From Candidatus Avacidaminococcus intestinavium (GTDB lineage Bacteria; Bacillota; Negativicutes; Acidaminococcales; Acidaminococcaceae), in assembly GCA_018714505.1 (NCBI GenBank), contig DVNI01000040.1, forward strand, positions 13,158 through 77,157: a stretch of 64,000 nt of DNA, read 5' to 3'. Under the pieces are notes generated by a model. That model saw nothing but the letters and a program-made list of their open reading frames with translations. It was not told the DNA's origin and made no database searches. Below, in pieces: positions 30,300 through 52,035 of the stretch. The stretch's first letter is position 1; the number at the start of each line of letters is the position of its first letter. Both the position numbers and the translations under genes were made by a program.

Positions 30300-32147
30300 A
30301 TGACAATGTTAATTGCTTTTTTAAAAAAGGTGATTAGTGGTATCGGTAAAGCATTTATAACATATCCAGTGGCAATGTTGTGCAATGTAATTTTTGCATT
30401 AGTCACAAGTGCGCGTATTTATTATGATTGGCCAATCTTACGTAGCTATGAGTTCTTGCTAGATAGTATACAATTAGCGTGTTTAGCAGGTGCTTTAGGA
30501 AGTATGGCTTTGGTAACATGGGCACAAAGTCGCTGGGGTTATACCCCAAAAATCAAAATTATCCATCTAGTTAGCTTTGGACTAGTTCTTATTATTTTTG
30601 CAGGTGTATATATTTGGGGTGGGCGGCTAACTGGTATTAGCGATAATCAATACTTAACAATTACAGAGCTAGCATCAGCAAGGGTGTTTGCGGTAAGCAC
30701 TGTAAGTTTATTATTGTTTATTATTTTTGCCGGAGCGCCCGTTAAAGCACCGCAAGTAGACCGTTCCTTTTTTATGACGCAAAAAGCGTTTTTTATTGCG
30801 TTAATTTACGGTATTGTCTTATGGCTAGGCACAGCCGGTGTTGCCAGAGCTATTGAGGTGCTGTTATATCAAGGGCTGAGTAGTGATATTTATGGTTATT
30901 TAGGTATTACTGCAGGTTTTTTGGCTTTTACATTTTTTATTAGTTATTTCCCAAGCTTTTATGAGGGTGCAGAAGATGTATACAGACAAAACGCGGAGCA
31001 ACAACCTAAATTTATTATTGTTTTATTTAACTATATTTTAGTACCTGTACTGCTTGCTTTAACCCTGGTTTTACTTGTGTGGACAGTACAAACTATTGGT
31101 GACGGAAGCTGGCAACGCTTTGAACGACTAGCCTGGATTGCAGCTGGCTATACGGTGTTTGGTATTTGGCTACATTTGATGGTTGCGTCTTACGATGTGA
31201 AGCCAGCTACTTTTTATAAAAAGCTGTATCCATTTGCCGCACTTATTATTTTGGCAACGGAAGCTTATGTTTTATATGCACAGGTACAAAGAGCTGGGCT
31301 TGGCGAAACAGAATATTGGTTTTCGGTGGTTTGGCTCCTAACAGTCTTTGCTGCCGTAGGTTTACTGTGGCGAAGACCGCAAATTTATCGTGATATACTC
31401 TTTGTTGCTTGCGCTCTAACTATGATTACTGTTATGCCACTTATCGGTTATAATGATTTACCCGTTGCCTGGCAAGTTAAGCGAGTAGAACGTTTACTAC
31501 AAGCAGAAAATTTATTAATTAATAATCAGCTCCAGCCAGCACAAAAAGAAATAAGTGAAACAGCTAAAGCGGAGATCACCGAAACAATCTTATTTTTAGC
31601 AAAAAAAGATAATGCGCAAATACCCGCTTGGTTAACACCCGATTTAAAAAATAATAGCGATTTTCAAGCAGCCTTTGGCTTTAATCAGACGCATAGTATA
31701 GATCCGCATATTCCAAGCAGTACTTGGGAAAATGTTTATTTATATGCTAAAAATCAACCCATTATGATTGATGGTTACCAGTGGTCGGTGCAACCAGAAG
31801 TATATGGCTCACAAGAAGAAGAGTGGCAGCTTACTGCAGATACGGGAACTTATACTCTATACTGGCGCCTTAATGAAACAAATGGAGTTCCAACTATAGA
31901 GCTTCGTCAAGCTGAGAAGAGTCTGCTTAAGGAAAGCCTAAGCGCGTATAGCAAGCGTTTGTTGCAAAAATATCCACTTAATCACGGTGGCGGTAACTTT
32001 GATGCAACGCTTGCGGATCTGAGTGTAGTACTAGAAAATCCGCAAGCAAAGGTTTATATTGTTTTTGAATATATTAGTTTAGGAAAAAAGGGAGAACAAG
32101 AACAACATCGTTTTACGCCACAAATGATTTATATACAAATAAAATAA
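30300..32147 (+). CDS. large polytopic membrane protein of unknown function (about 10 TM segments plus a ~210-aa soluble C-terminal domain)
   Basis: 615-aa ORF with a GAGGAGG RBS. Hydrophobic N-terminal ~400 aa and hydrophilic C-terminal region. No catalytic motif recognised. Confidence 0.6.
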   Translation: MTMLIAFLKKVISGIGKAFITYPVAMLCNVIFALVTSARIYYDWPILRSYEFLLDSIQLACLAGALGSMALVTWAQSRWGYTPKIKIIHLVSFGLVLIIFAGVYIWGGRLTGISDNQYLTITELASARVFAVSTVSLLLFIIFAGAPVKAPQVDRSFFMTQKAFFIALIYGIVLWLGTAGVARAIEVLLYQGLSSDIYGYLGITAGFLAFTFFISYFPSFYEGAEDVYRQNAEQQPKFIIVLFNYILVPVLLALTLVLLVWTVQTIGDGSWQRFERLAWIAAGYTVFGIWLHLMVASYDVKPATFYKKLYPFAALIILATEAYVLYAQVQRAGLGETEYWFSVVWLLTVFAAVGLLWRRPQIYRDILFVACALTMITVMPLIGYNDLPVAWQVKRVERLLQAENLLINNQLQPAQKEISETAKAEITETILFLAKKDNAQIPAWLTPDLKNNSDFQAAFGFNQTHSIDPHIPSSTWENVYLYAKNQPIMIDGYQWSVQPEVYGSQEEEWQLTADTGTYTLYWRLNETNGVPTIELRQAEKSLLKESLSAYSKRLLQKYPLNHGGGNFDATLADLSVVLENPQAKVYIVFEYISLGKKGEQEQHRFTPQMIYIQIK

Positions 32148-32374: not shown

Positions 32375-34771
32375 ATGACCAAGGGACACAGACCAGATAT
32401 AGCAATGAACAATGAAGATACAAATAAAAACAAAAACAGAGCGGGATTTCACGTTGTTAATCATGTTATGGATAATATAGTATGGCGAGTTAACTTTACT
32501 AGTATGAAAATAATGGATATTAGTAGTGTCGTCAAGAGTGTCTTAGGCTATGAAGTTGAAGAAGTAATCGGGGTAGATATTCGTAAAATAGTAATGCCAG
32601 AGAGCTATAACCAATTATTAAAGTACATACCTTTATGGCAAAAAGAACTTAATGGTAATATTTTTAGAAGTTTGCATATTGTAGGACGCATTGAGCATAC
32701 GATGAAAGATTCAGATTTGACAAAATGGGTAGAAGTGAATGCACAAGTCTTTGTGCGCAGTAACGGTGAGTTAATCGCTGTTGGTGTTAGCCGTGAAGAG
32801 TCGAATAAAGAGACATTATTTTCGCTATATAATGAATTAGCAGAACAACGAAAAATATTGCAAGAAACTCTTGATATGCAACCGTGCTATCTGAGTTGTT
32901 ATGATCCAGATGGAAAATATCTATTTGTTAATCAACGTTTTGCCGATTACTGGGGCTGTGATAAAAATGAAATCATTGGTAAGCCCATCTTTGGTCCTTC
33001 ACGAGTGCATTTGGATGATAAGGAAAAACATAAAAACCTTTTTGCTAGAGCACAGAAAGGTTTAGCGGGAGAATTTATTGATTCGTATACAAGTAGTAAT
33101 GGTAACTCCTTAGAAAAAGAGTGGGCTTATGGACAGTATTTTCCTGTTATTGATGAATTCGGCAAAGTAACAAAGATTTTTGTTTCGGTAGTTGATATTA
33201 CAGAGCAGTATAAACTAAAGCAGCAGCTTGTTGAAGCAGAGCTAGTGGGTAGAACTGATAGTTGGCGACTTAACTTAGAAACTGATGAACTTTTTTGTTC
33301 ACCAGGCGTTATGTCGCTTTATGGTATTAATGAAGATGATATAGCGAAAAAATCTTATTATGCATTTTTAGATTGCTATAAAAAAGAGTATCGGCAAGTC
33401 GTTATTGATAAAGTACAAGAAGCAATAGCTAAAGATTTAGCGGTTACCTTAGAAATAGAATGCAACTTCCCTGATGGACAAGCAGGTTGGATTAGACTGT
33501 CTTGTTCAATGATGAAAAACAATGAAGGCAAGCCTTATGAAGTATTAGGGCGGGTTGAAGATATTACCAATCAGAAAAAACTCGAGGTTATAAACAAGAA
33601 TAATACAGAACGACTACGCGTCTTTTTGCGTAATTTGCCCGGCGTGGGCTTCATTACAGATTTAAATGGTGATGTACTAGAGTTCTTTGACGAAGGACAA
33701 GTATTGCAGACAAAGAGTGCTAATTATATTTTAAATAGTAACATTTTGGAATTATTTAAGAATGATGCTACGGTGATTAAAGAAAAAATGAGGCTAGCAG
33801 TAGAGCGACATTCCTTACAGTTTTGTGAAGGTGTTTTAGATTATGGCAAGCAGAAAAAATGGTTTAAAATAAGAATTTCAAGACTAAGTTATGGTGAAAA
33901 TCCAAGAGCAGCACTCGCATTTTACTTGATGGACGTGAGTTCACAGGTAAAAAGCAACTTGATTCTTGATAAAGATACCTTGCAAAGATCTAAGGATATT
34001 TTGTTTAATGAACTCATTGAAGGTAAAACCATTCTTAGTAATAGCGTGCTTGATCAAGCTTGGCAATTGCAAATTAATCTAGTCCAAGATTTTTCTTTAT
34101 TTATAATTTTGTTTAATGAAAATCTTGAGTTTACTTTGACAAATAATCAAATACTTAAACTCATTGGACTTGTTGAAAGTAAGGAACAAGCAATCGTTTG
34201 GCGGACGAAAGAAGGTTTTGCTGTTTTGCGCCCGCTGGTGCGTAGTGTTGAAGACATTAAAAAAGAAGAGCTGCAATATGCAAATAGGGTGCAAGAACTT
34301 CTGCAAAGGATACCAGAAGTAGTTAAGCAAACTTTTTATATTGGCATCGCTGAATTTTCTACTGAGACTTTTAAACATTTGCCGCGTAGTTATAAACAAG
34401 CGCTAACAGCTGCTGAATTAGGACGCAAAGAAAGACCTGAGCAAACCATCTTTCATTTCTTAGATAGTGGCGTATTTCAATTTTTCCCCGCAGTTATGCA
34501 AGATGAATATATGCAAAAATTTATTAAGCGTACGATTGGTACTTTAGAAGAATATGACAAAGAGCATGATACGGAATTACTAGAAACTTTGAAATTTATT
34601 TTGAAAAGTGAAAGTTTGAAAGATGTAGCTGATAGTTTATTTGTACATCGACAAACTGTTTTGTTTAGAAAAAAGAGAATAGAACAGCTTTTAAAGATTT
34701 CTCTTGATGATTTTGAAACAAAACTTTCTTTAAGCATGGCTTTAAAATTTAAAAATGCTTTCTTTGAATAA
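32375..34771 (+). CDS. multi-PAS sensor fused to a PucR/CdaR-type helix-turn-helix transcriptional regulator (paralog 1)
   Basis: 798 aa with no TM segments. Several PAS-like modules (for example YLFVNQRFADYWGCDKNEIIGKP). C-terminal LFVHRQTVLFRKKRIEQLL is the PucR C-terminal HTH signature. Clear paralog of 60959-63349. Confidence 0.8.
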   Translation: MTKGHRPDIAMNNEDTNKNKNRAGFHVVNHVMDNIVWRVNFTSMKIMDISSVVKSVLGYEVEEVIGVDIRKIVMPESYNQLLKYIPLWQKELNGNIFRSLHIVGRIEHTMKDSDLTKWVEVNAQVFVRSNGELIAVGVSREESNKETLFSLYNELAEQRKILQETLDMQPCYLSCYDPDGKYLFVNQRFADYWGCDKNEIIGKPIFGPSRVHLDDKEKHKNLFARAQKGLAGEFIDSYTSSNGNSLEKEWAYGQYFPVIDEFGKVTKIFVSVVDITEQYKLKQQLVEAELVGRTDSWRLNLETDELFCSPGVMSLYGINEDDIAKKSYYAFLDCYKKEYRQVVIDKVQEAIAKDLAVTLEIECNFPDGQAGWIRLSCSMMKNNEGKPYEVLGRVEDITNQKKLEVINKNNTERLRVFLRNLPGVGFITDLNGDVLEFFDEGQVLQTKSANYILNSNILELFKNDATVIKEKMRLAVERHSLQFCEGVLDYGKQKKWFKIRISRLSYGENPRAALAFYLMDVSSQVKSNLILDKDTLQRSKDILFNELIEGKTILSNSVLDQAWQLQINLVQDFSLFIILFNENLEFTLTNNQILKLIGLVESKEQAIVWRTKEGFAVLRPLVRSVEDIKKEELQYANRVQELLQRIPEVVKQTFYIGIAEFSTETFKHLPRSYKQALTAAELGRKERPEQTIFHFLDSGVFQFFPAVMQDEYMQKFIKRTIGTLEEYDKEHDTELLETLKFILKSESLKDVADSLFVHRQTVLFRKKRIEQLLKISLDDFETKLSLSMALKFKNAFFE

Positions 34772-34800: not shown

Positions 34801-34850
34801 ATAATTGCTCCTTATTGTACATCAGGTACAATAAGGAGCAATTATTTTTA
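34801..34850 (+). terminator. rho-independent terminator after regulator paralog 1
   Basis: 20-bp perfect stem ATAATTGCTCCTTATTGTAC / GTACAATAAGGAGCAATTAT followed by TTTTA. Confidence 0.85.
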
Positions 34851-34965
34851 TATCCCCCGAATAATTGAAAAAGAATATAAGGTATTGTATGGTTAGATAG
34901 GATTAATGAAAGTATGTCAAAATGTGAATGTTCGGGTTTATTAAATAAAAAATAGGGAATCTTAA

Positions 34966-36306
34966 ATGAAAAATAATATCAATAAACTAATTAAACCAAT
35001 ATTAATAGCAATGATGTTGGTTGTCGCTGTAAGTCCAACCGTACAGGCAGCTATTAGTAAGGATGGGAAAACAGAGCAAACTATTGACCTTGTGCAAGCT
35101 GTGCAAATAGCTGTAGCAAGGCATCCTTCTGTCTTAGCGGCAGGGCAGACGGTACAGCAATATGGTGGTGAAGTCGCTGCTGCCAAAAGTGGTAAGAATT
35201 TCCAATTTAATTTTGGTCTTAAAGCCAGTAATGAACGTGGTTACAGTAATAATAGTAAGCAAAGTACTAGTGCTGTTGTGAGCGTTAATAAAATGCTATA
35301 TGACTTTGGTAAAACAGATAGTGAAGTAGCCTATGCAAAGGCGCGTGAACAGCATGCCTTTGCCAGTTATAGTAATCGCATAGAAGCAATTGCTCTTTTG
35401 TCAGCGTCTGCCTATCTTGATGTTTTGCGTTATCAACAGCAATTAGCAGAAACAGAAAAACAACTAGCGGCAATTGAGCATATCTTGTATATTGTTGATC
35501 TCCGTGCGCAGGCTGGTATCAGTAGTTATGCCGATGTTGTACAAGTCAAGGCGCGTCTAGCAAGTGCCGAAGCGAATTTAACCAGTGTTAAGACCCAGCT
35601 ATGGCAACAAGAGAATCGTTTAAACCTGTATTTAGGCTTTCGTCCAACTTCTTTGCAACCAATCGATACAACATTGTTCCAAAAAGAAGAAGCAACCGCA
35701 GTTGATTTCACGCAAATGCCTGATTATGAAGAAGCCGTTGCAGAAGTAAATGCGGCTAAAACGAATTATAAAGCTTTAAAAGCACAGAGCTATCCTGCGT
35801 TAGCTTTGCAAGGTGAAGTGGGGAAAGCTTTAGATGGCAGACCTTCTTCCTATGATAAGGACGGTCAATATCGCGCAGTCTATCTGACATTGAATGAACC
35901 ACTAGGCGGTAGCGGTATTCACGAACGAACTGGAGCTGCTCAAAATAGTTTGGCTGCCGCAGAGCAACAATTGGAAGCGGTAGTTTTAGAAAAAAACATC
36001 GTTCTTGCTAATTACTTGGAACAAGTGACTGGCTATAAAAGTATGCTCGCATTTATAGCAGCACAAACAACGCACACGAAACTCACAAAAGAACTGTATC
36101 TTGATCAATATATGTTGGGTAAAAGAAGTATTTTGGATCTCCTAAATGTAGAGCAAGAACTCTATCAAACAGCTGTCCAAAGAAATCAGTTGAACTTTGA
36201 CATCTTAAAAACCTTGCTTACTTACCAAAAAGAATGTGGTCAACTTAGGACGATATTTGATTTAGCGGTAAGCGAAAAGAGTAAAGAGAGCGAGGCACAG
36301 GAATAA
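34966..36306 (+). CDS. tolC: TolC family outer-membrane protein of a type I secretion system
   Basis: Sec signal peptide ending VQA|AIS. 446 aa with internally duplicated coiled-coil-rich OEP architecture. It directly abuts the ABC exporter gene (stop at 36304-36306, ATG at 36307). Confidence 0.85.
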   Translation: MKNNINKLIKPILIAMMLVVAVSPTVQAAISKDGKTEQTIDLVQAVQIAVARHPSVLAAGQTVQQYGGEVAAAKSGKNFQFNFGLKASNERGYSNNSKQSTSAVVSVNKMLYDFGKTDSEVAYAKAREQHAFASYSNRIEAIALLSASAYLDVLRYQQQLAETEKQLAAIEHILYIVDLRAQAGISSYADVVQVKARLASAEANLTSVKTQLWQQENRLNLYLGFRPTSLQPIDTTLFQKEEATAVDFTQMPDYEEAVAEVNAAKTNYKALKAQSYPALALQGEVGKALDGRPSSYDKDGQYRAVYLTLNEPLGGSGIHERTGAAQNSLAAAEQQLEAVVLEKNIVLANYLEQVTGYKSMLAFIAAQTTHTKLTKELYLDQYMLGKRSILDLLNVEQELYQTAVQRNQLNFDILKTLLTYQKECGQLRTIFDLAVSEKSKESEAQE

Positions 36307-38424
36307 ATGGAGCAAGTTGAAAGTAACCTCTGTTGGTTAAATGGTCTTATTTATGCCGGAAGATTTTATGGCTTAGCCGTTTCCGAAGAAAAAGTATACG
36401 CCGATGCACGCTGGGCAACCAGTGAAGACTTACCTACCTTTATCGAAAGAACAGGTAGAAACATCGGCTTAAGTGTTGTCCCCTGCGAGTATGCACCACT
36501 TCAAGAAGAACGTTATCCCGTACTGGTAGAACTTCAAGGTGGCGGCGTTGCCTTTGTAGAAGAGGCAGATAACCTCTTGGTTTCCACCGAGTTTACGGAA
36601 TCGGCTACTGCACAAAAAAGATATACCAAAGAAGAGTTTAGCCTGCAAGTAACCGGCCTAGCGGTAGTAGTACGCCCCGCTGTTAATCAGCCAGATCCTC
36701 GTATTGATGAATATATCAAACCCTATGAAGAAAACTGGTTCCGTCGCATCGTCTTACGGGACTATAAAAAATATGGTGACGTAATTATTGCGTCACTAGT
36801 AGCTAATATTTTGGCGCTTAGTTCCATGATTTTTTCTATGCAAATGTATGACCGCGTAATTCCTTCGCAATCAGAGAATACTCTTTGGGTACTCTTTACT
36901 GGTGTAATGATTGCCTTAATTTTTGAGTTCTTGCTAAGAACTTCAAGGGTCGTAATCACTGATCATATCGGCAAAAAAGCAGATTTACGCCTTTCCGACT
37001 ATGTTTTTGGTCGGGCTTTACGCATTAAAACAACAGAGAAACCAAAATCGACCGGTACTTTTATTGCTCAATTACGAGAGCTAGAACAAGTGCGGGAGAT
37101 GATTACCTCTAATGTTATGGCAAGTTTAGCCGATTTACCTTTTATTTTCTTGTTCTTATTTGTTTTATGGTTTATTGGCGGTAAATTAGTATTTTTGGTT
37201 TTAGCAGTTATTCCTCTTGCCATCATCCCGAGTCTACTCGCACAATATAAATTTGCCAAATTAGCAAAAGAAGGTATGCGTGAAAGTACGTTGCGCAACT
37301 CACTTTTGGTAGAAGTAGTGCAAGGCAGTGAAGATATTAAACTAATGCGCGCTGAAGCTCGCTTTGAACATCAATGGCGTAATTACAATGAATTTTTGGC
37401 AGAAGTCGGTTTAAAACAACGCTTTTTAACAGCCTTGCTTTTAAATGGTTTTGCTGAATTACAAAGCTTTATTTATGTTTGTGTACTCTTAACAGGCAGT
37501 TACCTCGTTATGAGTGGAGAACTAACGACCGGTGCTTTAATTGGTTGTTCGATTCTTGCTTCACGGACAATCGCTTCGATTATTCGAGCAACGCAAGTTG
37601 TTTCACGCTGGCAGCAAACTAAAATTTCGTATGAAAGCTTAGATAACTTGATGCGTAAGCCAGTAGATTATGCCCAAGATAAGCAGACCATTAATGTGGA
37701 GAGTCTGCAAGGTAAATATGAATTAAATGATGTCATGTTTACTTATGGTGACGAAAATGCACCACCGGTACTTAGAATCAATAAACTACAGATTGCTCAA
37801 GGTGAAAAAATTGCCATTTTAGGGCGGATTGGCGCTGGTAAATCAACCTTGCTACAGCTTTTAGCAGGGTTAGCAGAACCACAAGCTGGTCTGGTTAAAA
37901 TAGATGATTTAAATTTAAATCAAGTTGATACTTCAACTGTGCGACGAGATATTGGACTTTTGCAGCAGAATGCAAGACTCTTTTTTGGCACAGTCAGAGA
38001 CAATTTGCTTTTAGGAAAACCAGAAGCCAATGATACCCAGATTCTAGTGGCTTTAAGAGCGGCAGGCGCACTTAGCGTAGTACAAAAACTGCCCAATGGT
38101 TTGGATTATTTAATCATGGAAGGGGGAATGGGGTTATCCGGCGGACAACGACAGGCGCTTTTATTAGCGCGCTTATTGCTTAAAGAACCGAATATATTAT
38201 TATTCGATGAACCAACTTCTGCACTTGATCCTAATACTGAACAAGCGGTTTTAACATCTTTAGCAACGATAAGTCAAGCAAAAACCTTAGTAGTGGCAAC
38301 CCACAAAATGTCGGTCTTGCGTATAGTAGAGCGAATAATTGTCCTCGAAGGTGGCAGAGTTGTGCTAGATGGGCCCAAAGATAAGGTTTTAGAGCAACTT
38401 TCCGGAGGTGCGAAAAAACAGTGA
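36307..38424 (+). CDS. type I secretion system permease/ATPase (HlyB/LapB family with an N-terminal C39-like domain)
   Basis: 705 aa. ~130-aa N-terminal C39-like domain, a 6-TM exporter core, Walker A GRIGAGKST, signature LSGGQRQ, Walker B LLFDEPTSALD. Confidence 0.9.
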   Translation: MEQVESNLCWLNGLIYAGRFYGLAVSEEKVYADARWATSEDLPTFIERTGRNIGLSVVPCEYAPLQEERYPVLVELQGGGVAFVEEADNLLVSTEFTESATAQKRYTKEEFSLQVTGLAVVVRPAVNQPDPRIDEYIKPYEENWFRRIVLRDYKKYGDVIIASLVANILALSSMIFSMQMYDRVIPSQSENTLWVLFTGVMIALIFEFLLRTSRVVITDHIGKKADLRLSDYVFGRALRIKTTEKPKSTGTFIAQLRELEQVREMITSNVMASLADLPFIFLFLFVLWFIGGKLVFLVLAVIPLAIIPSLLAQYKFAKLAKEGMRESTLRNSLLVEVVQGSEDIKLMRAEARFEHQWRNYNEFLAEVGLKQRFLTALLLNGFAELQSFIYVCVLLTGSYLVMSGELTTGALIGCSILASRTIASIIRATQVVSRWQQTKISYESLDNLMRKPVDYAQDKQTINVESLQGKYELNDVMFTYGDENAPPVLRINKLQIAQGEKIAILGRIGAGKSTLLQLLAGLAEPQAGLVKIDDLNLNQVDTSTVRRDIGLLQQNARLFFGTVRDNLLLGKPEANDTQILVALRAAGALSVVQKLPNGLDYLIMEGGMGLSGGQRQALLLARLLLKEPNILLFDEPTSALDPNTEQAVLTSLATISQAKTLVVATHKMSVLRIVERIIVLEGGRVVLDGPKDKVLEQLSGGAKKQ

Positions 38425-39605
38425 AGAATTTATGGCATAAATTACAGAAACTTTGGCCTAGCGATGCCTCACAAACAGCCTTTTTTTCTAAAACCATACA
38501 CCTTACTTTTCTTGGTTTAGTGCTTTTGGTTGTGTGGGCATATTGGGCAGAAGTTGATGAAGTAGCAAGTAGTACCGGTAAAGTTATTCCTTCAGGTAAA
38601 GAACAGACGATTCAGTCATTGGAAGGCGGAATTATTAGCAGTATTCACGTACGAGAAGGTGAAGAAGTACAAGCAGGCCAAGTTCTGGTAAAACTAGATC
38701 CAGTGCGGACATCTGCTGCTGTAGAAGAAAGTGCAGCGAAGGTTAACGCACTAGAAGCGACAGCGGCACGCTTAAAAGCGGAAGTCAGTGGCAGTCCACT
38801 TATTTTCCCACCTGAACTAGATCAAGAAAAAGAACTAAAAGCGGCAGAGACCAATTTGTACCATTCTCGCAAAGGCTCTTTAACGAGTACCTTAGCAAGC
38901 GTGAGTGATGCTTTAGCTTTAGTCAGGCAAGAAATTGCCATGACGGAGCCTCTCGTTAGTAAAGGCGCAGCTAGTCAAGTAGAAGTTTTGCGGTTAAAAA
39001 GACAGGAAAATGATTTAGTGCAAAAACTTAACGATACGGAATCACAATATGTGGTAAAAGCTCGAGAAGAACTAGCCAAAGTAAGTACTGAATTAGAAGC
39101 GCAAAAATCTGTCGCCCGAGGCCGAGAAGATGCTCTCAATCGGTTAGAAATTAAATCACCGGTACGCGGAATTGTTAAAAATGTAGAGGTAACGACAGTC
39201 GGTGGTGTTATTCCCCCGAATGGTCGCTTAATGGCAATTGTGCCTTTAGATGGACAGTTATTGGTTGAGGCTAGAGTATCGCCTAGAGATATCGCCTTTA
39301 TCAGAATGCAACAACAAGCCACAGTTAAAGTAACTGCTTATGATTATTCAATTTATGGCGCTTTACCAGGAGAAGTAGTGATGGTATCACCAGACTCAGT
39401 GCAAGATGAGGTGAAACGCGACAATTATTACTATCGCGTGTATATCAGAACCGATAAAGACTATTTGGTCAACAAAGCGGGCACAAGTTTTCCTATTTCA
39501 CCAGGTATGGTAGCGGTAGTTGATATTCATACAGGTAGCAAGACTATTTTTGATTATATAGTGAAACCTTTTAACAAATTACGGGAAGCTTTGCGAGAAC
39601 GTTAA
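38421..39605 (+). CDS. HlyD family type I secretion periplasmic adaptor
   Basis: Single N-terminal TM (LTFLGLVLLVVWAYW), a long coiled-coil hairpin, and a C-terminal beta-barrel region ending DYIVKPF. The GTG start overlaps the upstream stop (GTGA). Confidence 0.88.
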   Translation: MKNLWHKLQKLWPSDASQTAFFSKTIHLTFLGLVLLVVWAYWAEVDEVASSTGKVIPSGKEQTIQSLEGGIISSIHVREGEEVQAGQVLVKLDPVRTSAAVEESAAKVNALEATAARLKAEVSGSPLIFPPELDQEKELKAAETNLYHSRKGSLTSTLASVSDALALVRQEIAMTEPLVSKGAASQVEVLRLKRQENDLVQKLNDTESQYVVKAREELAKVSTELEAQKSVARGREDALNRLEIKSPVRGIVKNVEVTTVGGVIPPNGRLMAIVPLDGQLLVEARVSPRDIAFIRMQQQATVKVTAYDYSIYGALPGEVVMVSPDSVQDEVKRDNYYYRVYIRTDKDYLVNKAGTSFPISPGMVAVVDIHTGSKTIFDYIVKPFNKLREALRER

Positions 39606-39633
39606 AGTAATAAAAATAATGGAGGGATAGTTG

Positions 39634-42600
39634 ATGAAAAAAGTGGTTGTGGTCAAGGTGAAAAATGACCAGCAAGAGGTAGCTCAAAAAGAGGTTGTTG
39701 TCAAAAGTTCTGTCGAAGGTGCGGTGCTTACCGAACCGCTAGTAATTAAAGCGGAAGCAGGAGCGCAGTATGAATTTATTAATAAAGACACTGGACGTTA
39801 TTCAAAGCATATTATAGTTAAGCATGTCGATAATGATTTATGGGTGTTCTTTACAGACGAAGGTAATACGACGGAAACACCGGATGTTATTATTGAATCT
39901 TATTATGATTATCCATCAGATTCTTTGTTTGGCCTATCTGGTAAAGGTAGTGCCTATGAATATGTACCAGTAGAAGATAGTGTAGAATATACGACTGCTA
40001 GTTTACCAGATAACGATACATTGCTGTTGCATATCGAACGTGATAATGGTGGCGCAGCTTGGCTCTGGCCGGCATTAGCAGCAGGTGGTATTGGAGCCGC
40101 GATTGGTAGCGGTTCTGATGACGATTGTCCGAAGGATACAACGCCACCGAATATTACAGTAGAAGTGCCAGACGTAACTAACGATACAACGCCGGTTATT
40201 AAAGGCACAACTGATGCGCCAGAGGGCAGTACTGTTACTGTGATGATTACACCGAAGGATGGCGGAACGCCTATCGAAATAAAGGTAACAGTTGATGAAA
40301 AAGGTAACTATAAGGTTGACTTCCCAGAAGGAACAGAAATTCCAGAAGGTCCTTTTGATGTTACGGCAAAAGTAACAGATCCAGCAGGTAACGAAGGAAC
40401 AGCCATTGATAACGGCATGATTGATACAATTGCTCCAAGCATTACGGTCGAAGTACCAGAAGAAACTAACGATAAAACACCAACTATTACAGGCACTACT
40501 GATGCAAAAGATGGTAGCATTATTGAATTAACGATTACCGATCAAGCAGACAAGAGCCAAACTGTTCAAACAGTCGCTAAAGATGGTAATTATAAAGTAG
40601 TAGTAACAGAAGAACTAGCAGAAGGCAAATTTGATGTTACAGCAAAAGTAACAGACCCAGCAGGTAACGAAGGCACTGCAAAAAATAACGGTGTTATTGA
40701 TACAACTGCTCCGAAAATTACTGTAGATGTGCCAGAAAATACAAATGATACAACACCAAGCATTACAGGTCATGTTGATGGTGTAGAACCAGGTACGACA
40801 GTTACTCTAACAATTAAACCAAAAGCAGGAGAACCTATTACGCTAACAACCATAACTGATGGTAAGGGTGATTATAGTGTTAGTGTACCAGATGCTAATA
40901 AGTTGCCAGAAGGCGATTTTGACGTTACGGCAAAAGTAACAGATCCAGCAGGTAACGAAGGAACAGCCATTGATAACGGTATGATTGATACAATTGCTCC
41001 GAAAATTACTGTAGATGTGCCAGAAAATACAAACGATACGACGCCAGAAATTACAGGTCATGTTGATAGTGTAGAACCAGGTACAACAGTTACTTTAACG
41101 ATTAAACCAAAAGTAGGAGAACCTATTACGCTAACAGCCACAACTGATGTTAAGGGTGATTATAGTGTTAGTGTACCAGATGCTAATAAGTTGCCAGAAG
41201 GTGATTTTGAGGTTACAGCAAAAGTGACAGATCCAGCGGGTAACACGGCGACTGCAAAAGATGATGGTATGATTGATACAACTAAACCAGAAATAACTGT
41301 AGAAGTGCCAGATGTAACAGGTAATAATAAGACTCCTGATATTATCGGTAAAGTAACAGGTGTGGATGCTAATACGCCGGTAAAAGTAGTAGTGACACTG
41401 AAAGGCGGTGGTACGCCTGTTGAGCTTGACACTATAACTGACGAAGATGGAAATTACAAAGTAACCTTACCGGAAAATTTACCGGAAGGAGATTTTGACG
41501 TAGTAGCAAAAGTAACAGATCCAGCAGGCAATACGGCGACTGATGATGGTAACGGGGTTATTGATACAATTGCCCCAAGCATTACGGTAGATGTGCCAGA
41601 CGTAAGTAATAATAAAACACCAGAAATTACAGGTACGACTGATGCGCCAGAGGGCAGTAAAGTAACCTTGGTAATCACAGATAATGACGGTAAGGTTATT
41701 GAAACAATTGAAAACGTTGAAGTTGCTGATGGTAAATATACGGCAACTCCTAAAGAATTGCCAGAGGGTAACTTTGAGGTTACGGCAAAAGTAACAGATC
41801 CAGCAGGTAACGAAGGAACAGCGATTGATAGCGGTTTGATTTCCGCTAAAGCACCGACGATTACAGTTATTGCACCGGATGATGTGAATGATGCTACACC
41901 AGAAATTACAGGTACGACTGATGCGCCAGAGGGCAGTAAAGTAACTTTGGTAATCAAAGATAATGCTGGTAATGTTATTGAAACAATTGAAAATGTTGAA
42001 GTTGCGGGCGGTAAATATATAGCAACTACTAAAGAATTGCCAGAAGGTGATTTTACTGTTGAAGCGACAGTTGAAGATGGTAAAGGTAATAGTGCAACAG
42101 CAACTGATAGTGGTAGCGTAGATTTATTGCCAGAAATTACTGTAGAAGTACCAGAAAAAACTGACGATAGTACGCCAGAAATCACTGGTACAGTTAAGAA
42201 TGTACCAGAAGGTAGTGATGTAACAATTACAATTACGCCAGAAGATGGCAGTGGTCCTATTGAAGTAAAGGCAAAAGTTGATGACCAAGGTAACTATAAG
42301 GTTACTTTCCCCGAAGGAAAAGAAATTCCGGAAGGTGATTTTGATGTAAACGTTAGCGTTCAAGATATAGAAAATAATACAGCGATTAATACTGGTAAAG
42401 GTAGCGTAGATTTATTGCCAGAAATCACTGTAGAAGTGCCAGAAAAGACTAGCGATATCACGCCAGAAATCACTGGTACAGTTAAGAATGTACCAGAAGG
42501 TAAGGAAGTAAGTATTACAATAAACAAAGATACTGATAAAGAAATTACTTTTACGGCAAAGGTTGAAAAAGATGGAACGTATAAGGCAGAAGTGCCTAGT

Positions 42601-44508
42601 GAATTGACAGAAGGCGAATTTAAGGTAGAGGTTAGCGTTCAAGACAAAGAGGGTAATACAGCTATTAATACGGATACAGGCGTTATTGAATTAGGTGAAC
42701 CTCCTGTGGCACCAACGGCGGAAATTACTATTGGGGATGGAGACGCTGACAAGATTGCTGCTGGTAAGGCAACGACTATTAAAATTACTTTTGATCAAGA
42801 AATTGATCCAGCTACCTTTGTCAGCAGTGACATTAAGGCGAGTGCAGAGGGCGTAACTAATCCGCTAGGTTCGTTCGACAATCTAAGCGCGCCAGTTCTG
42901 AATAAAGAAACGGGTAAGTGGGAAGCGACTGTTGAATTTACGCCGAGTGAAGCGGCTCATGGTAAGGAGATTACCTTTACAATAAAGGATGATTCTTACA
43001 CAGGAGTAAACCAGCTAGCTGGCGGAGGTACAACTGGAGCAACTACCGTTAATACACCACCGACTTTAGAAGTGACGACCGAAACCGAAACCATTGAGTA
43101 TACAGCGGGCGAGAATTTATTTACTGCAGATAAACCACAAGATAATTTTATTAATGTTACAAAGTCGGGTGTGAAAACTATAATTCCAGGTGAAAGAGGC
43201 GAAGCTCTATCTCTACATAATGATAATGGTTACTATGAGGGTATATTGAAAACATCTCCACAAATAAAGTTAGGAGAAGTGCTACAATTGGATTTAAGCT
43301 GGAATAATGGTTGGTATGATGGATCTTCTGGTGGTAAAGCGGTATTAGATATTTCTTATGGCAATGATTCTAAATGGAATAAATTTATGACTATAACAAC
43401 TCCAGATGGTAACCTTGGCGAAGGCGTGTATGGCAACACACCATTTCCAGAGACATCTTTATTTGCAACGATTACTTTAGCTGAAGGCGTAGAGATATCT
43501 ATGGATGAAGGAAGAACATGGCATAATTCTATCACTTGCCAAGAGATTCAATGGAAAACATGGATGTTAAATACGAGCCAGGATATAGGTTCGCTTAAAG
43601 GGTGGGATGAAAGTTTTCTTAAGCAATTTATGGTTAAGTTGCCTGATAGTATGATTGCTCCAGATAATCAAATCAAAATTAATTGGGAGGCTGTAGGAGA
43701 TCCTGCCGATGACTTCCAGCTTGGTGGCATCAAGGTATTGACGCCTGCTGAGCCGACTCCTGGTGGAGAACCGGGTGCTGACAACACGGTTGATTACAAC
43801 GGTGCGAATGGCGAAGAAGCAGTTATTGGTTTATTAGATAAGGTCGCAGTTTCGGATACTAATGCAGATTCTATTAAATCGGTAGAGATTACCTTAAATG
43901 GTTATGAAACTGGTGACCAAATGTGGTTGAAAGGTCATGAGACTAATGCTGGGGAAATTGATGGCTTTAGTTATGAAGTTAAGGTCGATGGTGATAAACT
44001 AGTATTAACCATTGATGCTTCTAGTGCAGATGTTGCTCCGGATAAATGGAATGATTTAATCCATTCCTTGCAGTTCGGTACGACGGGTGCAGCGGGCGAG
44101 CGGACCATTGACTTTGTGATTAATGATGGTTTGGACGATAGTGCTAAAGAGACGATTACCATCGACGTTAAAGCACCGGCACCGGCAACAGGTGGTGTTC
44201 CTGATGTAGTGGGTACTTCTGGTGGCACAGCAGATGCCTTGTTTGAAACAGATGCGATTGCCATGCTCTTAGACGCTACGGCAGATGCTGCAAGTGATGA
44301 TACTGATGCTAGTGCTGACGTGCAGCTACCGCATTTAAGAGAGGTCTTAGCGGAGGACAGTGCAGCAGACTTAGGTCAGTCGACACTCTTTGCTGATGGT
44401 GTAGATCTAGGTTTAGCGCAAGACACGCTAGACTTCTATTATCTAGCACCAACGCATGAACAAGATGAACTTGATGCGGCTTTACAGTTGCAGCAAGTAG
44501 TACTCTAA
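39634..44508 (+). CDS. giant repetitive T1SS-type adhesin (BapA/LapA-like: N-terminal prefix domain, Gly/Ala hydrophobic linker, 9 tandem Ig-like repeats, unique C-terminal domains, acidic C-terminal tail)
   Basis: 1,624 aa with no Sec signal peptide. N-terminal ~150 aa resemble the BapA-prefix domain, followed by AAWLWPALAAGGIGAAIGSGSDDD. Nine ~96-aa repeats of the type APxITVxVPExTNDTTPxITGT...PEGxFxVTAKVTDPAGN. The tail is Asp/Glu/Ala/Leu-rich and Cys-free. The gene sits immediately downstream of tolC-hlyB-hlyD. Confidence 0.85.
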   Translation: MKKVVVVKVKNDQQEVAQKEVVVKSSVEGAVLTEPLVIKAEAGAQYEFINKDTGRYSKHIIVKHVDNDLWVFFTDEGNTTETPDVIIESYYDYPSDSLFGLSGKGSAYEYVPVEDSVEYTTASLPDNDTLLLHIERDNGGAAWLWPALAAGGIGAAIGSGSDDDCPKDTTPPNITVEVPDVTNDTTPVIKGTTDAPEGSTVTVMITPKDGGTPIEIKVTVDEKGNYKVDFPEGTEIPEGPFDVTAKVTDPAGNEGTAIDNGMIDTIAPSITVEVPEETNDKTPTITGTTDAKDGSIIELTITDQADKSQTVQTVAKDGNYKVVVTEELAEGKFDVTAKVTDPAGNEGTAKNNGVIDTTAPKITVDVPENTNDTTPSITGHVDGVEPGTTVTLTIKPKAGEPITLTTITDGKGDYSVSVPDANKLPEGDFDVTAKVTDPAGNEGTAIDNGMIDTIAPKITVDVPENTNDTTPEITGHVDSVEPGTTVTLTIKPKVGEPITLTATTDVKGDYSVSVPDANKLPEGDFEVTAKVTDPAGNTATAKDDGMIDTTKPEITVEVPDVTGNNKTPDIIGKVTGVDANTPVKVVVTLKGGGTPVELDTITDEDGNYKVTLPENLPEGDFDVVAKVTDPAGNTATDDGNGVIDTIAPSITVDVPDVSNNKTPEITGTTDAPEGSKVTLVITDNDGKVIETIENVEVADGKYTATPKELPEGNFEVTAKVTDPAGNEGTAIDSGLISAKAPTITVIAPDDVNDATPEITGTTDAPEGSKVTLVIKDNAGNVIETIENVEVAGGKYIATTKELPEGDFTVEATVEDGKGNSATATDSGSVDLLPEITVEVPEKTDDSTPEITGTVKNVPEGSDVTITITPEDGSGPIEVKAKVDDQGNYKVTFPEGKEIPEGDFDVNVSVQDIENNTAINTGKGSVDLLPEITVEVPEKTSDITPEITGTVKNVPEGKEVSITINKDTDKEITFTAKVEKDGTYKAEVPSELTEGEFKVEVSVQDKEGNTAINTDTGVIELGEPPVAPTAEITIGDGDADKIAAGKATTIKITFDQEIDPATFVSSDIKASAEGVTNPLGSFDNLSAPVLNKETGKWEATVEFTPSEAAHGKEITFTIKDDSYTGVNQLAGGGTTGATTVNTPPTLEVTTETETIEYTAGENLFTADKPQDNFINVTKSGVKTIIPGERGEALSLHNDNGYYEGILKTSPQIKLGEVLQLDLSWNNGWYDGSSGGKAVLDISYGNDSKWNKFMTITTPDGNLGEGVYGNTPFPETSLFATITLAEGVEISMDEGRTWHNSITCQEIQWKTWMLNTSQDIGSLKGWDESFLKQFMVKLPDSMIAPDNQIKINWEAVGDPADDFQLGGIKVLTPAEPTPGGEPGADNTVDYNGANGEEAVIGLLDKVAVSDTNADSIKSVEITLNGYETGDQMWLKGHETNAGEIDGFSYEVKVDGDKLVLTIDASSADVAPDKWNDLIHSLQFGTTGAAGERTIDFVINDGLDDSAKETITIDVKAPAPATGGVPDVVGTSGGTADALFETDAIAMLLDATADAASDDTDASADVQLPHLREVLAEDSAADLGQSTLFADGVDLGLAQDTLDFYYLAPTHEQDELDAALQLQQVVL
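40135..42693 (+). repeat. tandem array of nine ~288-bp coding repeats inside the adhesin gene
   Basis: The period is 288 bp (for example CCGAAAATTACTGTAGATGTGCCAGAAAATAC at 40711 and 40999). Neighbouring units 3/4, 6/7 and 8/9 are roughly 90% identical at DNA level by eye. A ~58-nt stretch recurs at 40379 and 40942 with a single C/T difference. Confidence 0.9.
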
Positions 44509-44530
44509 GTTTTATAAAAATATAAAGATA

Positions 44531-44576
44531 AAAAGGACAAGACTTATTTATGAGTCTTGTCCTTTTTGGTTTTTTA
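44531..44576 (+). terminator. rho-independent terminator after the adhesin gene
   Basis: AAAAGGACAAGACT..AGTCTTGTCCTTTT hairpin followed by TGGTTTTTT. Confidence 0.85.
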
Positions 44577-49990: not shown

Positions 49991-50066
49991 GGTCCATTAG
50001 CTCAGTTGGTAGAGCACCTGACTCTTAATCAGGGTGTCGCAGGTTCGAGGCCTGCATGGATCACCA
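49991..50066 (+). tRNA. tRNA-Lys (anticodon CTT)
   Basis: Manual cloverleaf fold: acceptor GGTCCAT/ATGGATC (one G-U pair), D-arm GCTC/GAGC, anticodon stem CCTGA/TCAGG with loop CTCTTAA, T-arm GCAGG-TTCGAGG-CCTGC, encoded CCA. Confidence 0.9.
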
Positions 50067-50074
50067 TTTTTAGC

Positions 50075-51856: not shown

Positions 51857-51932
<76 letters not shown>

Positions 51933-51956
51933 TTTTTTTTGCCAAAAATCACATAA

Positions 51957-52033: not shown

Positions 52034-52035
52034 AT

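What the first reader, a model, noticed from the sequence alone, without database searches (positions are those of the whole stretch)
34966..44508. Complete type I secretion operon (TolC-HlyB-HlyD) with a giant non-RTX Ig-repeat adhesin in a diderm Firmicute
Seen in sequence: four co-directional genes abut or overlap (36306/36307; the GTGA overlap at 38421-38424; a 28-nt gap before the adhesin). They are bounded by strong terminators at 34801-34850 and 44531-44576. The substrate has no Sec signal. It has a BapA-prefix-like N-terminal domain followed by a Gly/Ala hydrophobic linker, nine Ig-like repeats and an acidic Cys-free C-terminus. I saw no GGxGxDxUx nonapeptide (RTX) repeats. Established knowledge: in Proteobacteria this layout defines LapA/BapA/SiiE-type surface adhesins, retained in TolC through an N-terminal plug and released by LapG/LapD. 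Inference: Negativicutes surface adhesion has mostly been attributed to type V autotransporters. A LapA-like T1SS adhesin here, with no LapG/LapD homologue in the window, suggests a different or unregulated retention mechanism and possibly horizontal origin of the cassette.
Basis: partly seen in the sequence, partly recalled or inferred. Interest (0 to 1): 0.65.

Follow-up and report, generated by a model that had tools for sequence, protein, structure and literature searches.

The report
Type I secreted adhesin in a Negativicute
A bacterium of the double-membraned Firmicute family Acidaminococcaceae carries a complete, Pseudomonas-LapB-like type I secretion operon with a 1,625-residue repeat adhesin; this is an ordinary kind of system in an unusual lineage, and the adhesin's N-terminal anchoring module lacks the protease site that controls release in the known Lap systems.

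Summary
Four co-directional genes at 34966-44508 encode a TolC-like channel, a LssB/LapB-family ABC exporter, a HlyD adaptor and a 1,625-aa protein. They lie between two strong hairpin terminators. The large protein has no Sec signal, no RTX nonapeptides, nine 92-96-aa Ca-stabilised Ig repeats (Big_13/Ca_tandemer) and an acidic, Cys-free, disordered tail.

The host is a Negativicute. Its FtsH is 80-86% identical to Acidaminococcaceae MAG proteins, and a trimeric autotransporter with a C-terminal SLH domain lies 10 kb away.

Corrections:
- The N-terminal domain does not match BapA_N or any other curated model. It belongs to an uncurated family (225 clusters) found at the N-termini of giant proteobacterial adhesins. 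The family has a ~135-aa beta domain, a transmembrane-like Trp/Gly/Ala segment and a Gly/Asp run.
- No LapG site is present. The single LAAG is not conserved in the orthologue.
- No LapG or LapD gene is in the window.

Base composition gives no sign of recent transfer, and the cassette sits at the same chromosomal place in a relative. Even so, the ABC exporter's nearest named relatives are all Proteobacteria (~50% identity).

Verdict: a new member of a known kind. It is probably retained by an N-terminal plug, without LapG, and controlled by the adjacent PAS-PucR regulator. Secretion and retention are untested.

The parts
32375..34771 (+). PAS-PAS-GGDEF_2-PucR-HTH transcription regulator (798 aa), a candidate regulator of the operon
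   Evidence: Pfam PAS_9/PAS_3/PAS_4 and HTH_30. The same gene lies upstream of the cassette in L001, at 58% identity. A 32%-identical full-length paralogue at 60959-63349 lies beside the trimeric autotransporter gene. The link to the operon is inferred from position only.
34801..34845 (.). 20-bp hairpin terminator, bidirectional in form, that ends the regulator gene and bounds the operon upstream
34865..34893 (+). Weak sigma-70-like promoter match (TTGAAA-17-TATGGT, 9 of 12) ahead of the TolC-like gene
   Evidence: It is a consensus match only, and the number of such sites does not exceed shuffles.
34966..36306 (+). TolC-family outer-membrane factor (446 aa) with an N-terminal Sec-type signal (…PTVQA/AIS)
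   Evidence: Pfam OEP 130.6 bits, two stretches. TIGR01844 scores 177 bits, below its 225 cutoff. The signal peptide was read from the translation.
36307..38424 (+). LssB/LapB-family T1SS ABC permease/ATPase (705 aa) with a degenerate, non-catalytic N-terminal domain
   Evidence: TIGR03375 777 bits, above the 693 cutoff. It is 69-71% identical to three metagenome proteins, then 48-52% to proteobacterial LapB. The N-terminal 140 aa give no Peptidase_C39 hit at E<=1. Cys9 is not conserved in LapB homologues.
38421..39605 (+). HlyD-family T1SS periplasmic adaptor (394 aa). Its GTG start overlaps the ABC stop codon.
   Evidence: TIGR01843 328.7 bits, above the 208.65 cutoff
39631..44508 (+). Adhesin gene (1,625 aa from the TTG at 39631; more likely 1,624 aa from the ATG at 39634)
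39631..40044 (+). N-terminal beta-sandwich domain (aa 1-138), the proposed plug or retention domain
   Evidence: AF2 pLDDT is ~75-97 over aa 1-138 and the model is all beta. There are 225 remote homologues, all at protein N-termini. It has no Pfam, NCBIfam or PDB match.
40045..40125 (+). Hydrophobic Trp/Gly/Ala segment followed by an acidic patch (aa 139-165: GAAWLWPALAAGGIGAAIGSGSDDD)
   Evidence: It is the most hydrophobic 19-mer of the protein (KD 1.25). It is conserved in the orthologue except for the dialanine. It is the family hallmark: 88 of 130 relatives have KD>=1.6 at median position 142. AF2 leaves it disordered.
40153..42714 (+). Nine tandem Ca-stabilised Ig-like extender repeats (aa 175-1028, 92-96 aa each)
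   Evidence: NF033510, 9 stretches, 234.5 bits. Big_13, 8 stretches, 237.9 bits. Repeat register. PDB 6XI3, 'Large adhesion protein (Lap)', E 1.8e-29. A 288-nt DNA tandem repeat lies at 40619-41312.
42715..44166 (+). Non-repetitive distal region (aa 1029-1512): three predicted beta domains, the candidate ligand-binding part
   Evidence: No Pfam, NCBIfam or PDB sequence hit. The low-confidence AF2 model has beta domains at aa ~1048-1118, ~1193-1370 and ~1417-1513. Foldseek gives only weak MAM / L-type-lectin-like hints.
44167..44505 (+). Acidic, Cys- and Lys-poor, disordered C-terminal tail (aa 1513-1625) ending …LQLQQVVL, the presumed uncleaved T1SS signal
   Evidence: Composition and charge. 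pLDDT 23-36 with short helices. Similar …Q-Q-x-[IV]-x-V-[IL] ends in 23 of 51 long family members.
44529..44568 (.). 18-bp hairpin terminator that ends the operon

Best explanation
This is a chromosomal operon of an Acidaminococcaceae (Negativicutes) bacterium. It encodes a LapB/LssB-type type I secretion system, in the order outer-membrane factor, ABC exporter, HlyD adaptor, followed by its dedicated substrate.

The substrate is a ~170-kDa surface adhesin. Its proposed route and function are as follows.
- Secretion: it is exported unfolded, C-terminus first, guided by the acidic disordered tail (inferred).
- Outside the cell: the nine Big_13/Ca_tandemer repeats bind Ca2+ and stiffen into a stalk. 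The stalk holds out the non-repetitive distal beta domains, which would carry the binding activity (inferred by homology to the solved Lap extender).
- Retention: the last part to leave, a stably folded 138-residue beta-sandwich followed by a hydrophobic Trp/Gly/Ala segment and an acidic patch, cannot pass the TolC-like channel. It keeps the protein tethered to the cell (inferred by analogy with the LapA and MpIBP retention modules).
- Release: there is no LapG-type cleavage site and no LapG or LapD gene nearby, so release, if any, is not by the Lap protease switch.
- Control: the amount on the surface is probably set by transcription, through the adjacent PAS-PucR regulator (inferred from conserved position).

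The gene content, family assignments, architecture and host lineage are shown here. Secretion, surface retention, Ca2+ binding, the ligand and the regulation are inferred.
For: - Operon structure with coupled or overlapping genes between two strong terminators.
- The ABC and MFP are above NCBIfam trusted cutoffs for T1SS families. The OMF matches Pfam OEP.
- The substrate has no Sec signal, nine Ca_tandemer/Big_13 repeats, and homology to the solved Lap extender 6XI3 (E 1.8e-29). It also has an acidic, disordered, Cys-free tail.
- The same four genes occur in the same order, with the same adhesin N-terminus, in three other assemblies (L001-L004).
- The N-terminal module has 225 remote homologues. 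All sit at the N-termini of often giant Ig-repeat proteins, some named 'T1SS secreted agglutinin RTX'. Many have typical T1SS C-termini.
- The N-domain is confidently modelled as a compact beta-sandwich.
- Host lineage: FtsH is 80-86% identical to Acidaminococcaceae MAG proteins. A neighbouring trimeric autotransporter carries ESPR, a YadA anchor and an SLH domain. Among trimeric autotransporters, a C-terminal SLH domain has been reported only in Negativicutes (bioRxiv 10.64898/2026.01.22.700529; PMC7549365).
- The regulator is conserved upstream in L001 and has a paralogue beside the autotransporter gene.
Against: - There are no expression or secretion data. No RNA run holds the region.
- The TolC-like protein is below the TIGR01844 cutoff (177 against 225 bits).
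- The C-terminal 608 residues (aa 1018-1625) match no curated T1SS target-domain model.
- The N-terminal domain matches no characterised retention module, by sequence or by fold. Its plug role therefore rests on position and analogy.
- The hydrophobic segment is only moderately hydrophobic here (KD 1.25) and AF2 leaves it disordered.
- LapG and LapD could be encoded elsewhere in the genome, which was not available.
Confidence: 0.7

Rival explanations
1. It is a true LapA-type, LapG/LapD-controlled adhesin. The BTLCP protease and the c-di-GMP receptor would be encoded elsewhere in the genome and would cleave at the LAAG (A150-A151) just after the N-terminal domain.
For: - The ABC exporter is in the same NCBIfam family as LapB.
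- LAAG at 149-152 is the only [TAPLS]AA[GV] in 1,625 residues. It lies just after the N-terminal beta domain, though at A150-A151 rather than the ~106-109 of the LapA and DvhA sites (PMC10690286).
- 22 of 130 family relatives carry a [TAP]AA[GV] near the hydrophobic segment.
- LapG and LapD need not be linked to the adhesin gene.
Against: - The dialanine is not conserved in the 81%-identical N-terminus of the orthologue (TLAGGA).
- The motif starts with L, not T, A or P.
- No preceding DP motif or targeting helix is present, and AF2 shows no helix after residue 134. The site definition is from PMC13090378.
- AA[GV] strings are expected by chance in Ala/Gly-rich segments.
- No Peptidase_C93 or LapD domain is in any window ORF of at least 150 aa.
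- Two proteobacterial family members also have no LapG or LapD within 10 kb.
Confidence: 0.1
2. The protein is fully released rather than retained, as a soluble or matrix-forming Ca-binding protein. The N-terminal module would have another role, such as chaperoning, pacing of secretion or self-association.
For: - No characterised retention module, LapG site or anchor was detected.
- Many T1SS substrates are released.
- The hydrophobic segment is weak in this member.
Against: - The architecture of N-terminal globular domain, long rigid extender and distal non-repeat domains is that of cell-anchored T1SS adhesins. The extender is homologous to that of a solved adhesin.
- An N-terminal folded domain plus a transmembrane-like segment is conserved across 225 clusters and always sits at the extreme N-terminus, the last part to be exported. 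That fits anchoring better than any role in a released protein.
Confidence: 0.15
3. The cassette is a recent horizontal acquisition from Proteobacteria, a mobile adhesin island.
For: - Beyond three unnamed metagenome proteins at 69-71% identity, the best hits of the ABC exporter listed are 48-52% identical, and every one that carries a name is proteobacterial.
- The GTDB species-representative scan found only Gammaproteobacteria as full-length relatives, at 45-50% identity.
- Acinetobacter shares the OMF-ABC-MFP order.
- In L003 and L004 the cassette abuts IS21 istA/istB.
- TXSScan found no T1SS in the Negativicutes genomes of 2016 (PMC4793230).
Against: - GC (0.40-0.42), GC3 (0.27-0.32) and synonymous codon use lie inside the range of the other 38 genes.
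- The cassette has the same upstream regulator and downstream genes in L001, at 56-71% protein identity, so it predates that split.
- The closest proteobacterial proteins are only ~50% identical.
- An old transfer into this lineage remains likely. A recent one does not.
Confidence: 0.15

Closest known systems
Pseudomonas fluorescens LapA-LapEBC (Lap system), with relatives in Vibrio cholerae (FrhA, CraA) and Desulfovibrio vulgaris (DvhA)
   Same: - The ABC exporter is in the same NCBIfam family (TIGR03375), with ~50% identity to proteins named LapB.
- It has the same tripartite machinery.
- The substrate is giant, with an N-terminal folded domain, then a Gly-rich stretch, then Ca-dependent beta-sandwich repeats, non-repeat distal domains and a C-terminal signal.
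   Different: - No match to a retention-module model.
- No targeting helix or DP-[T/A/P]AAG site.
- No RTX nonapeptides and no vWA domain.
- No LapG or LapD in 64 kb.
- A hydrophobic transmembrane-like segment stands where LapA has its cleavage site and poly-Gly linker.
- The host is a Negativicute, not a proteobacterium.
Salmonella BapA-BapBCD and SiiE-SiiCDF (non-RTX, LapG-independent T1SS Ig-repeat adhesins; from general knowledge)
   Same: - A non-RTX giant adhesin made of tandem bacterial Ig domains.
- Encoded next to its own OMF, ABC and MFP genes.
- No LapG switch.
- A few relatives of the N-terminal module give weak hits to BapA_N (2 of 41, best E 0.041) and to 'BapA-related adhesin SiiEA' (4 of 41, best E 9e-5).
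   Different: - This protein itself gives no BapA_N or biofilm_BapA_N hit, even at E<=10.
- The repeats are Big_13/Ca_tandemer.
- No SiiAB-like (MotAB-like) accessory genes are in the operon.
- The hydrophobic segment after the N-domain is not, to my knowledge, a described BapA or SiiE feature.
Marinobacter/Marinomonas-type RTX adhesin extender regions (PDB 6XI3, 'Large adhesion protein (Lap) involved in biofilm formation')
   Same: The nine repeats align to the solved tetra-repeat over 374 residues (E 1.8e-29). They match NCBIfam 'Ca2+-stabilized repeat-containing adhesin'.
   Different: - Only nine repeats.
- No RTX beta-roll before the C-terminus.
- The distal domains have no detectable sequence relatives in PDB, Pfam or NCBIfam.
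Veillonella parvula type V adhesins (VtaA-I and others), the known adhesins of Negativicutes
   Same: The host class and the presumed role in surface adhesion are the same. A trimeric autotransporter of this kind, with an SLH domain, is in the same window at 54012-60080.
   Different: - A different secretion pathway: Sec plus Bam and a YadA anchor, against a one-step ABC/TolC route.
- A different anchoring mechanism.
- The V. parvula papers read here do not mention a T1SS adhesin.

Membership tests
Type I secretion system, LssB/LapB subfamily | ABC permease/ATPase scoring above the TIGR03375 trusted cutoff | tested here: met
   777 bits against a cutoff of 693.1, covering residues 10-700
Type I secretion system, LssB/LapB subfamily | HlyD-family T1SS adaptor (TIGR01843) encoded next to the ABC gene | tested here: met
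   328.7 bits against a cutoff of 208.65. The start codon overlaps the ABC stop codon.
Type I secretion system, LssB/LapB subfamily | TolC-family outer-membrane factor | tested here: inconclusive
   Pfam OEP is well above its cutoff (130.6 against 22). TIGR01844 type_I_sec_TolC scores 177 bits, below its 225 cutoff. A Sec signal is present.
Type I secretion system, LssB/LapB subfamily | The substrate is exported through an uncleaved C-terminal signal, and export depends on the three components | not testable with these tools
   Only compatible features were seen: no Sec signal, and an acidic, disordered, Cys-free tail. No curated C-terminal target-domain model hits.
LapA-like (BTLCP-linked, two-step) adhesins | N-terminal retention module recognisable as LapA-type | tested here: not met
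   The N-terminal 181 aa give no NCBIfam or Pfam hit at E<=10. None of 41 family members hits a retention-module model at E<=1. I did not verify that the library holds such a model.
LapA-like (BTLCP-linked, two-step) adhesins | LapG site: targeting helix, DP motif and scissile [T/A/P]AAG (definition from PMC13090378) | tested here: not met
   The only candidate is LAAG at 149-152, without DP or a helix, and it is not conserved in the orthologue.
LapA-like (BTLCP-linked, two-step) adhesins | LapG (Peptidase_C93/BTLCP) and LapD genes in the genome, usually linked | tested here: not met
   Neither is found in any ORF of at least 150 aa in the 64-kb window, nor on the 18-kb syntenic contig L001. 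The rest of the genome could not be searched.
RTX proteins | Tandem GGxGxDxUx nonapeptides (HemolysinCabind) | tested here: not met
   Zero regex matches. No HemolysinCabind hit.
BapA-type adhesins | BapA_N (PF22783) / biofilm_BapA_N (NF033677) prefix domain | tested here: not met
   No hit for this protein at E<=10. Among relatives, 2 of 41 hit BapA_N at E>=0.041 and 1 of 41 hits NF033677 at E 0.25.
Ca2+-stabilised Ig-repeat (Big_13 / Ca_tandemer) adhesin extender | Tandem repeats above the NF033510 and PF19077 cutoffs | tested here: met
   234.5 bits against 50, in 9 stretches. 237.9 bits against 27, in 8 stretches. Homology to PDB 6XI3. Ca2+ binding itself was not tested.
Negativicutes (diderm Firmicutes) as host | Core-gene affiliation and lineage-specific envelope proteins | tested here: met
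   The best named FtsH hits are Acidaminococcaceae MAG proteins, at 80-86% identity. A trimeric autotransporter with a YadA anchor followed by an SLH domain is present; a 2026 preprint finds that combination only in Negativicutes.

The most novel reading that the evidence does not exclude
The N-terminal module would define a second, LapG-independent way of holding type I secreted giant adhesins on the cell. The module is a ~135-aa beta-sandwich, then a Trp-flanked transmembrane-like Gly/Ala helix, then a Gly/Asp run. It is present in ~225 protein clusters from Gamma- and Betaproteobacteria, Campylobacterota and this Negativicute, and no Pfam or NCBIfam model covers it. In this reading the hydrophobic segment acts as a stop-transfer or membrane anchor. 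It would either be released sideways into a membrane or be lodged in the exporter, rather than sitting as a soluble periplasmic plug. Its presence in a diderm Firmicute would then reflect an ancient or transferable 'anchor cassette'.
Probability: 0.3. Interest if true: 0.7.

Novelty: new member of a known kind. Interest (0 to 1): 0.45.

Why it matters
In the work I could find, adhesion in Negativicutes (Veillonella and its relatives in gut, mouth and rumen) has been explained by type V autotransporters. A LapB-type T1SS with a dedicated giant adhesin adds a second adhesin class to diderm Firmicutes.

It also gives a natural test of whether the one-step ABC/TolC route and N-terminal retention work across the OmpM-tethered outer membrane of these bacteria.

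The more general point concerns the N-terminal module. It is widespread, unannotated and lacks the LapG site. If it is a retention device, many giant adhesins now labelled only 'Ig-like domain-containing protein' would be anchored by a mechanism that has not been studied.

Tried and rejected
- Exact look-up of the window's ABC protein in the assemblies index found nothing.
- A single-sequence scan of GTDB genomes with the ABC protein found no relative.
- A word-seeded homologue search with the adhesin N-terminus found none. The exhaustive HMMER search was needed.
- The profile of the N-terminal family against PDB sequences gave only a chance hit, E 4.6. Foldseek of the N-domain model against PDB gave nothing at E<=1e-3.
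- A JGI metagenome scan with the three close N-termini found no relative.
- No RNA-seq run holds the gene, so co-transcription could not be checked.
- The AF2 model of the C-terminal 606 residues was built from only two sequences and is poor (mean pLDDT 52). Its Foldseek matches (MAM, L-type lectin, gp350) have TM-scores of 0.11-0.18 normalised to the 606-residue query, and at most ~0.37 normalised to the lectin domains, and are treated as hints only.
- I considered Cys9 of the ABC N-domain as a possible C39 catalytic residue and rejected it. There is no Peptidase_C39 hit, no partner His by inspection, and the position is Pro, Ala or Ser in 106 of 120 homologues.
- I considered that the hydrophobic segment marks an N-terminally anchored, Sec-independent membrane protein unrelated to the T1SS. 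I rejected this because the gene is coupled to the T1SS genes in four assemblies and the protein has a T1SS-type tail.
- Smith et al. 2018 (PMC5869472), which defines LapA-like T1SS, is not held in the library. Definitions were taken from PMC13090378, PMC10690286 and PMC6890996.

Full report
**1. What is in the sequence**

Between 34966 and 44508 four ORFs run on the + strand:
- 34966-36306, 446 aa.
- 36307-38424, 705 aa. It starts on the base after the previous stop codon.
- 38421-39605, 394 aa. Its GTG start overlaps the previous stop as GTGA.
- 39631-44508, 1,625 aa from a TTG.

A GGAGGG lies at 39621-39626 and an ATG at 39634, and the orthologue begins MKK.

Hairpins of 20 bp (34801-34845) and 18 bp (44529-44568), each followed by a T-run, bracket the block.

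**2. The three machinery genes**

- The first protein matches Pfam OEP (130.6 bits) and has a Sec-type signal peptide. It scores 177 bits on TIGR01844, below that model's 225 cutoff. It is a divergent TolC-family factor.
- The second is a full-length match to TIGR03375, the LssB/LapB type of T1SS exporter (777 bits, cutoff 693). It scores far lower on the HlyB and PrtD models.
- The third matches TIGR01843, the HlyD T1SS adaptor (329 bits, cutoff 209).

The exporter's N-terminal 140 residues give no Peptidase_C39 hit even at E<=1. Its Cys9 is peculiar to this small clade, and the position is Pro, Ala or Ser in 106 of 120 homologues. The N-domain is therefore non-catalytic, as expected for exporters of large uncleaved substrates.

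**3. The substrate**

The substrate has no N-terminal hydrophobic signal and no GGxGxDxUx nonapeptide. Its only cysteines are at residues 166 and 1303.

Residues 175-1028 are nine repeats of 92-96 aa, each beginning ITV[E/D/I][V/A]P. They score 234.5 bits on NCBIfam NF033510, 'Ca2+-stabilized repeat-containing adhesin' (9 stretches). They score 237.9 bits on Pfam Big_13 (8 stretches). They also align over 374 residues to PDB 6XI3, 'Large adhesion protein (Lap) involved in biofilm formation' (E 1.8e-29). Repeats 3 and 4 are still 87% identical at the DNA level (288-nt tandem repeat).

Residues 1029-1512 match nothing in Pfam, NCBIfam or PDB sequences. A two-sequence AF2 model (mean pLDDT 52) suggests three beta domains and a disordered tail from about residue 1513. 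Foldseek gives only weak MAM and L-type-lectin-like hints.

The last 145 residues have net charge -25 and a single Lys-poor, Cys-free stretch, and the protein ends …LQLQQVVL.

**4.

Residues 1-181 hit no Pfam or NCBIfam model at E<=10, and that includes BapA_N and biofilm_BapA_N.

An exhaustive phmmer search of 1.84 billion representatives found 225 proteins at E<=1e-3. Every match lies at the protein's own N-terminus. Many of the proteins are giant, up to 4,157 aa.

The relatives share one plan:
- A ~120-135-aa domain with the motifs …Y-E-[LF]…A-P…[TK]-R-x-G-N-D-L-x-[IV]-x-F… and P-D-[LV]-I-I-E-x-[YF]-Y….
- A Trp-flanked hydrophobic Gly/Ala/Leu segment. 88 of 130 relatives have a 19-mer with Kyte-Doolittle mean >=1.6, at median position 142.
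- A run of Gly, Asp or Ser.

Named members come from Moraxella, Oligella, Sulfurimonas and a vent metagenome. They are annotated only as 'Ig-like domain-containing protein', 'VCBS repeat' or 'T1SS secreted agglutinin RTX'.

Of 41 aligned members, 2 touch BapA_N (best E 0.041), 1 touches biofilm_BapA_N (E 0.25) and 4 touch 'BapA-related adhesin SiiEA' (best E 9e-5). None hits a retention-module model. The module is therefore at most a distant cousin of the BapA prefix and is not covered by curated models.

AF2 with this alignment gives a confident all-beta sandwich for residues 1-138 and leaves residues 139-177 disordered. Neither a profile search of PDB sequences nor Foldseek finds a solved relative.

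In the window's protein the hydrophobic segment is AAWLWPALAAGGIGAAIG followed by SGSDDD. It is the most hydrophobic stretch of the protein but only moderately so (KD 1.25).

**5. LapG and LapD**

The LapG site is defined as a targeting helix, a DP motif and a scissile [T/A/P]AAG (PMC13090378; also PMC10690286 and PMC6890996).

The adhesin has a single [TAPLS]AA[GV], the LAAG at 149-152. It has no DP and no predicted helix before it. In the orthologue, whose N-terminus is 81% identical, the sequence there is TLAGGA.

All ORFs of at least 150 aa in the window were scanned with Pfam. None has a Peptidase_C93 or LapD-type domain. None is on the syntenic contig L001 either. Two proteobacterial family members also have none within 10 kb.

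The rest of the genome could not be searched. Absence is therefore shown only locally.

**6. Host**

FtsH (2170-4092) is 80-86% identical to proteins named 'MAG: … [Acidaminococcaceae bacterium]'. That family belongs to the class Negativicutes.

The 2,022-aa ORF at 54012-60080 on the - strand is a trimeric autotransporter. It has an ESPR signal, YadA head, stalk and anchor domains, and a C-terminal SLH domain. Béchon et al. describe the extra SLH domain for Veillonella and other Negativicutes (PMC7549365). A 2026 survey finds it only in Negativicutes among trimeric autotransporters (10.64898/2026.01.22.700529).

Near-identical sequence occurs in bovine, food-production and dust metagenomes.

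**7. Relatives and origin**

The exporter's closest relatives are three unnamed metagenome proteins at 69-71% identity. After that come proteins at 48-52% identity. All of those that carry a name are proteobacterial, and several are named LapB.

L001 carries the same four genes with the same upstream regulator (58% identity). It also has the same downstream Metallophos, Crp and DUF1858-SBP genes, and its adhesin is 58% identical. L003 and L004 carry the cassette next to IS21 istA/istB, with a homologous adhesin N-terminus.

A scan of 185,579 GTDB species representatives used two conserved exporter motifs. It returned only Gammaproteobacteria as full-length relatives, at 45-50% identity. Acinetobacter has the same OMF-ABC-MFP order. 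The scan used only two patterns, so it is not an exhaustive negative.

The cassette's GC (0.404-0.418), GC3 (0.265-0.322) and synonymous-codon likelihood lie inside the spread of the window's other 38 genes.

Taken together, an old acquisition is plausible and a recent one is not supported. The cassette is rare in sequenced Negativicutes.

**8. Regulation**

The gene immediately upstream (32375-34771) encodes a regulator with PAS domains, a GGDEF_2 domain and a PucR-type HTH. It has its own terminator.

A full-length paralogue (32% identity) sits at 60959-63349, next to the autotransporter gene. The upstream copy is conserved in L001.

This pairing of one paralogous regulator with each adhesin locus suggests transcriptional control. 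That is an inference from position.

**9. Mechanism proposed**

Shown:
- A complete LapB-family T1SS operon with an adjacent substrate.
- The substrate has the standard adhesin plan and a T1SS-type tail.

Inferred:
- Export proceeds C-terminus first through the ABC, HlyD and TolC conduit.
- The extender rigidifies on binding Ca2+.
- The distal domains bind a ligand.
- The folded N-domain arrests at the channel and tethers the protein.

What the hydrophobic segment does is open. It could be a conduit-spanning linker, a lateral membrane anchor or a stop-transfer signal.

**10. Comparison and novelty**

The system works like LapA/LapEBC and like BapA and SiiE. It is a member of the LssB/LapB T1SS family by curated thresholds. 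It is not a LapA-like (BTLCP-linked) adhesin, an RTX protein or a BapA_N protein by the features tested.

TXSScan (2016) predicted only T4SS and T5SS in Negativicutes, and T1SS only in Halanaerobiales among diderm Firmicutes (PMC4793230). The V. parvula envelope and adhesin papers mention TolC only with efflux pumps. No other open paper combines Negativicutes with T1SS.

I therefore rate it a new member of a known kind, in an unusual lineage, with an unstudied N-terminal module. Interest is moderate.

Noticed in passing
window 54012-60080 (-): A 2,022-aa trimeric autotransporter adhesin with an ESPR signal, 6 YadA head and 6 stalk stretches, a YadA anchor and a C-terminal SLH domain. This is the Negativicutes-specific architecture, so the window holds two different adhesin secretion types within 10 kb of each other.
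   Followed up: partly
window 32375-34771 (+) and 60959-63349 (+): Two paralogous ~797-aa PAS-GGDEF_2-PucR-HTH regulators, 32% identical over their full length. Each lies beside one of the two adhesin loci. The first is conserved upstream of the cassette in L001. They may be dedicated adhesin regulators.
   Followed up: partly
window 40619-41312, and contigs of runs X1-X3 laid on 40200-42500: A 288-nt DNA tandem repeat (2.4 copies, 87% identity) covers repeats 3-4. Metagenome contigs show joints that skip or go back by 288, 576 or 588 nt. That fits strains with different repeat numbers, or assembly collapse of the repeats.
   Followed up: partly
L003 695-3015 and L004 81-2401: In a third organism the same OMF-ABC-MFP-adhesin cassette lies directly beside IS21-family istA/istB genes. 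That hints the cassette can sit in mobile contexts.
   Followed up: no
window 50278-51768 (+): A 496-aa ORF with no Pfam hit at E<=1. It lies between two tRNA clusters: Lys-Glu at 49991-50149 and Val-Asp-Phe at 51857-52111.
   Followed up: no
window 30300-32147 (+): A 615-aa protein with many hydrophobic segments in its N-terminal two-thirds and no Pfam hit at E<=0.01. It lies just upstream of the regulator.
   Followed up: no
window 36331-36333 (Cys9 of the ABC exporter): The Cys aligns with the position of the C39 peptidase catalytic Cys. It is invariant in the four-member Negativicute clade but is Pro, Ala or Ser in proteobacterial LapB homologues. No matching His was seen.
   Followed up: partly
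L022 8975-9934 (Moraxella nasovis): A family member with the same N-terminal module (P0222, 2,110 aa) is preceded by an OmpA-family gene, not by T1SS genes. The adhesin and its exporter are unlinked there.
   Followed up: no
window 39631-39636: The mechanical ORF starts at a TTG, but the next codon is an ATG, which has better spacing to the GGAGGG at 39621-39626 and matches the orthologue's start. The adhesin is probably 1,624 aa.
   Followed up: yes
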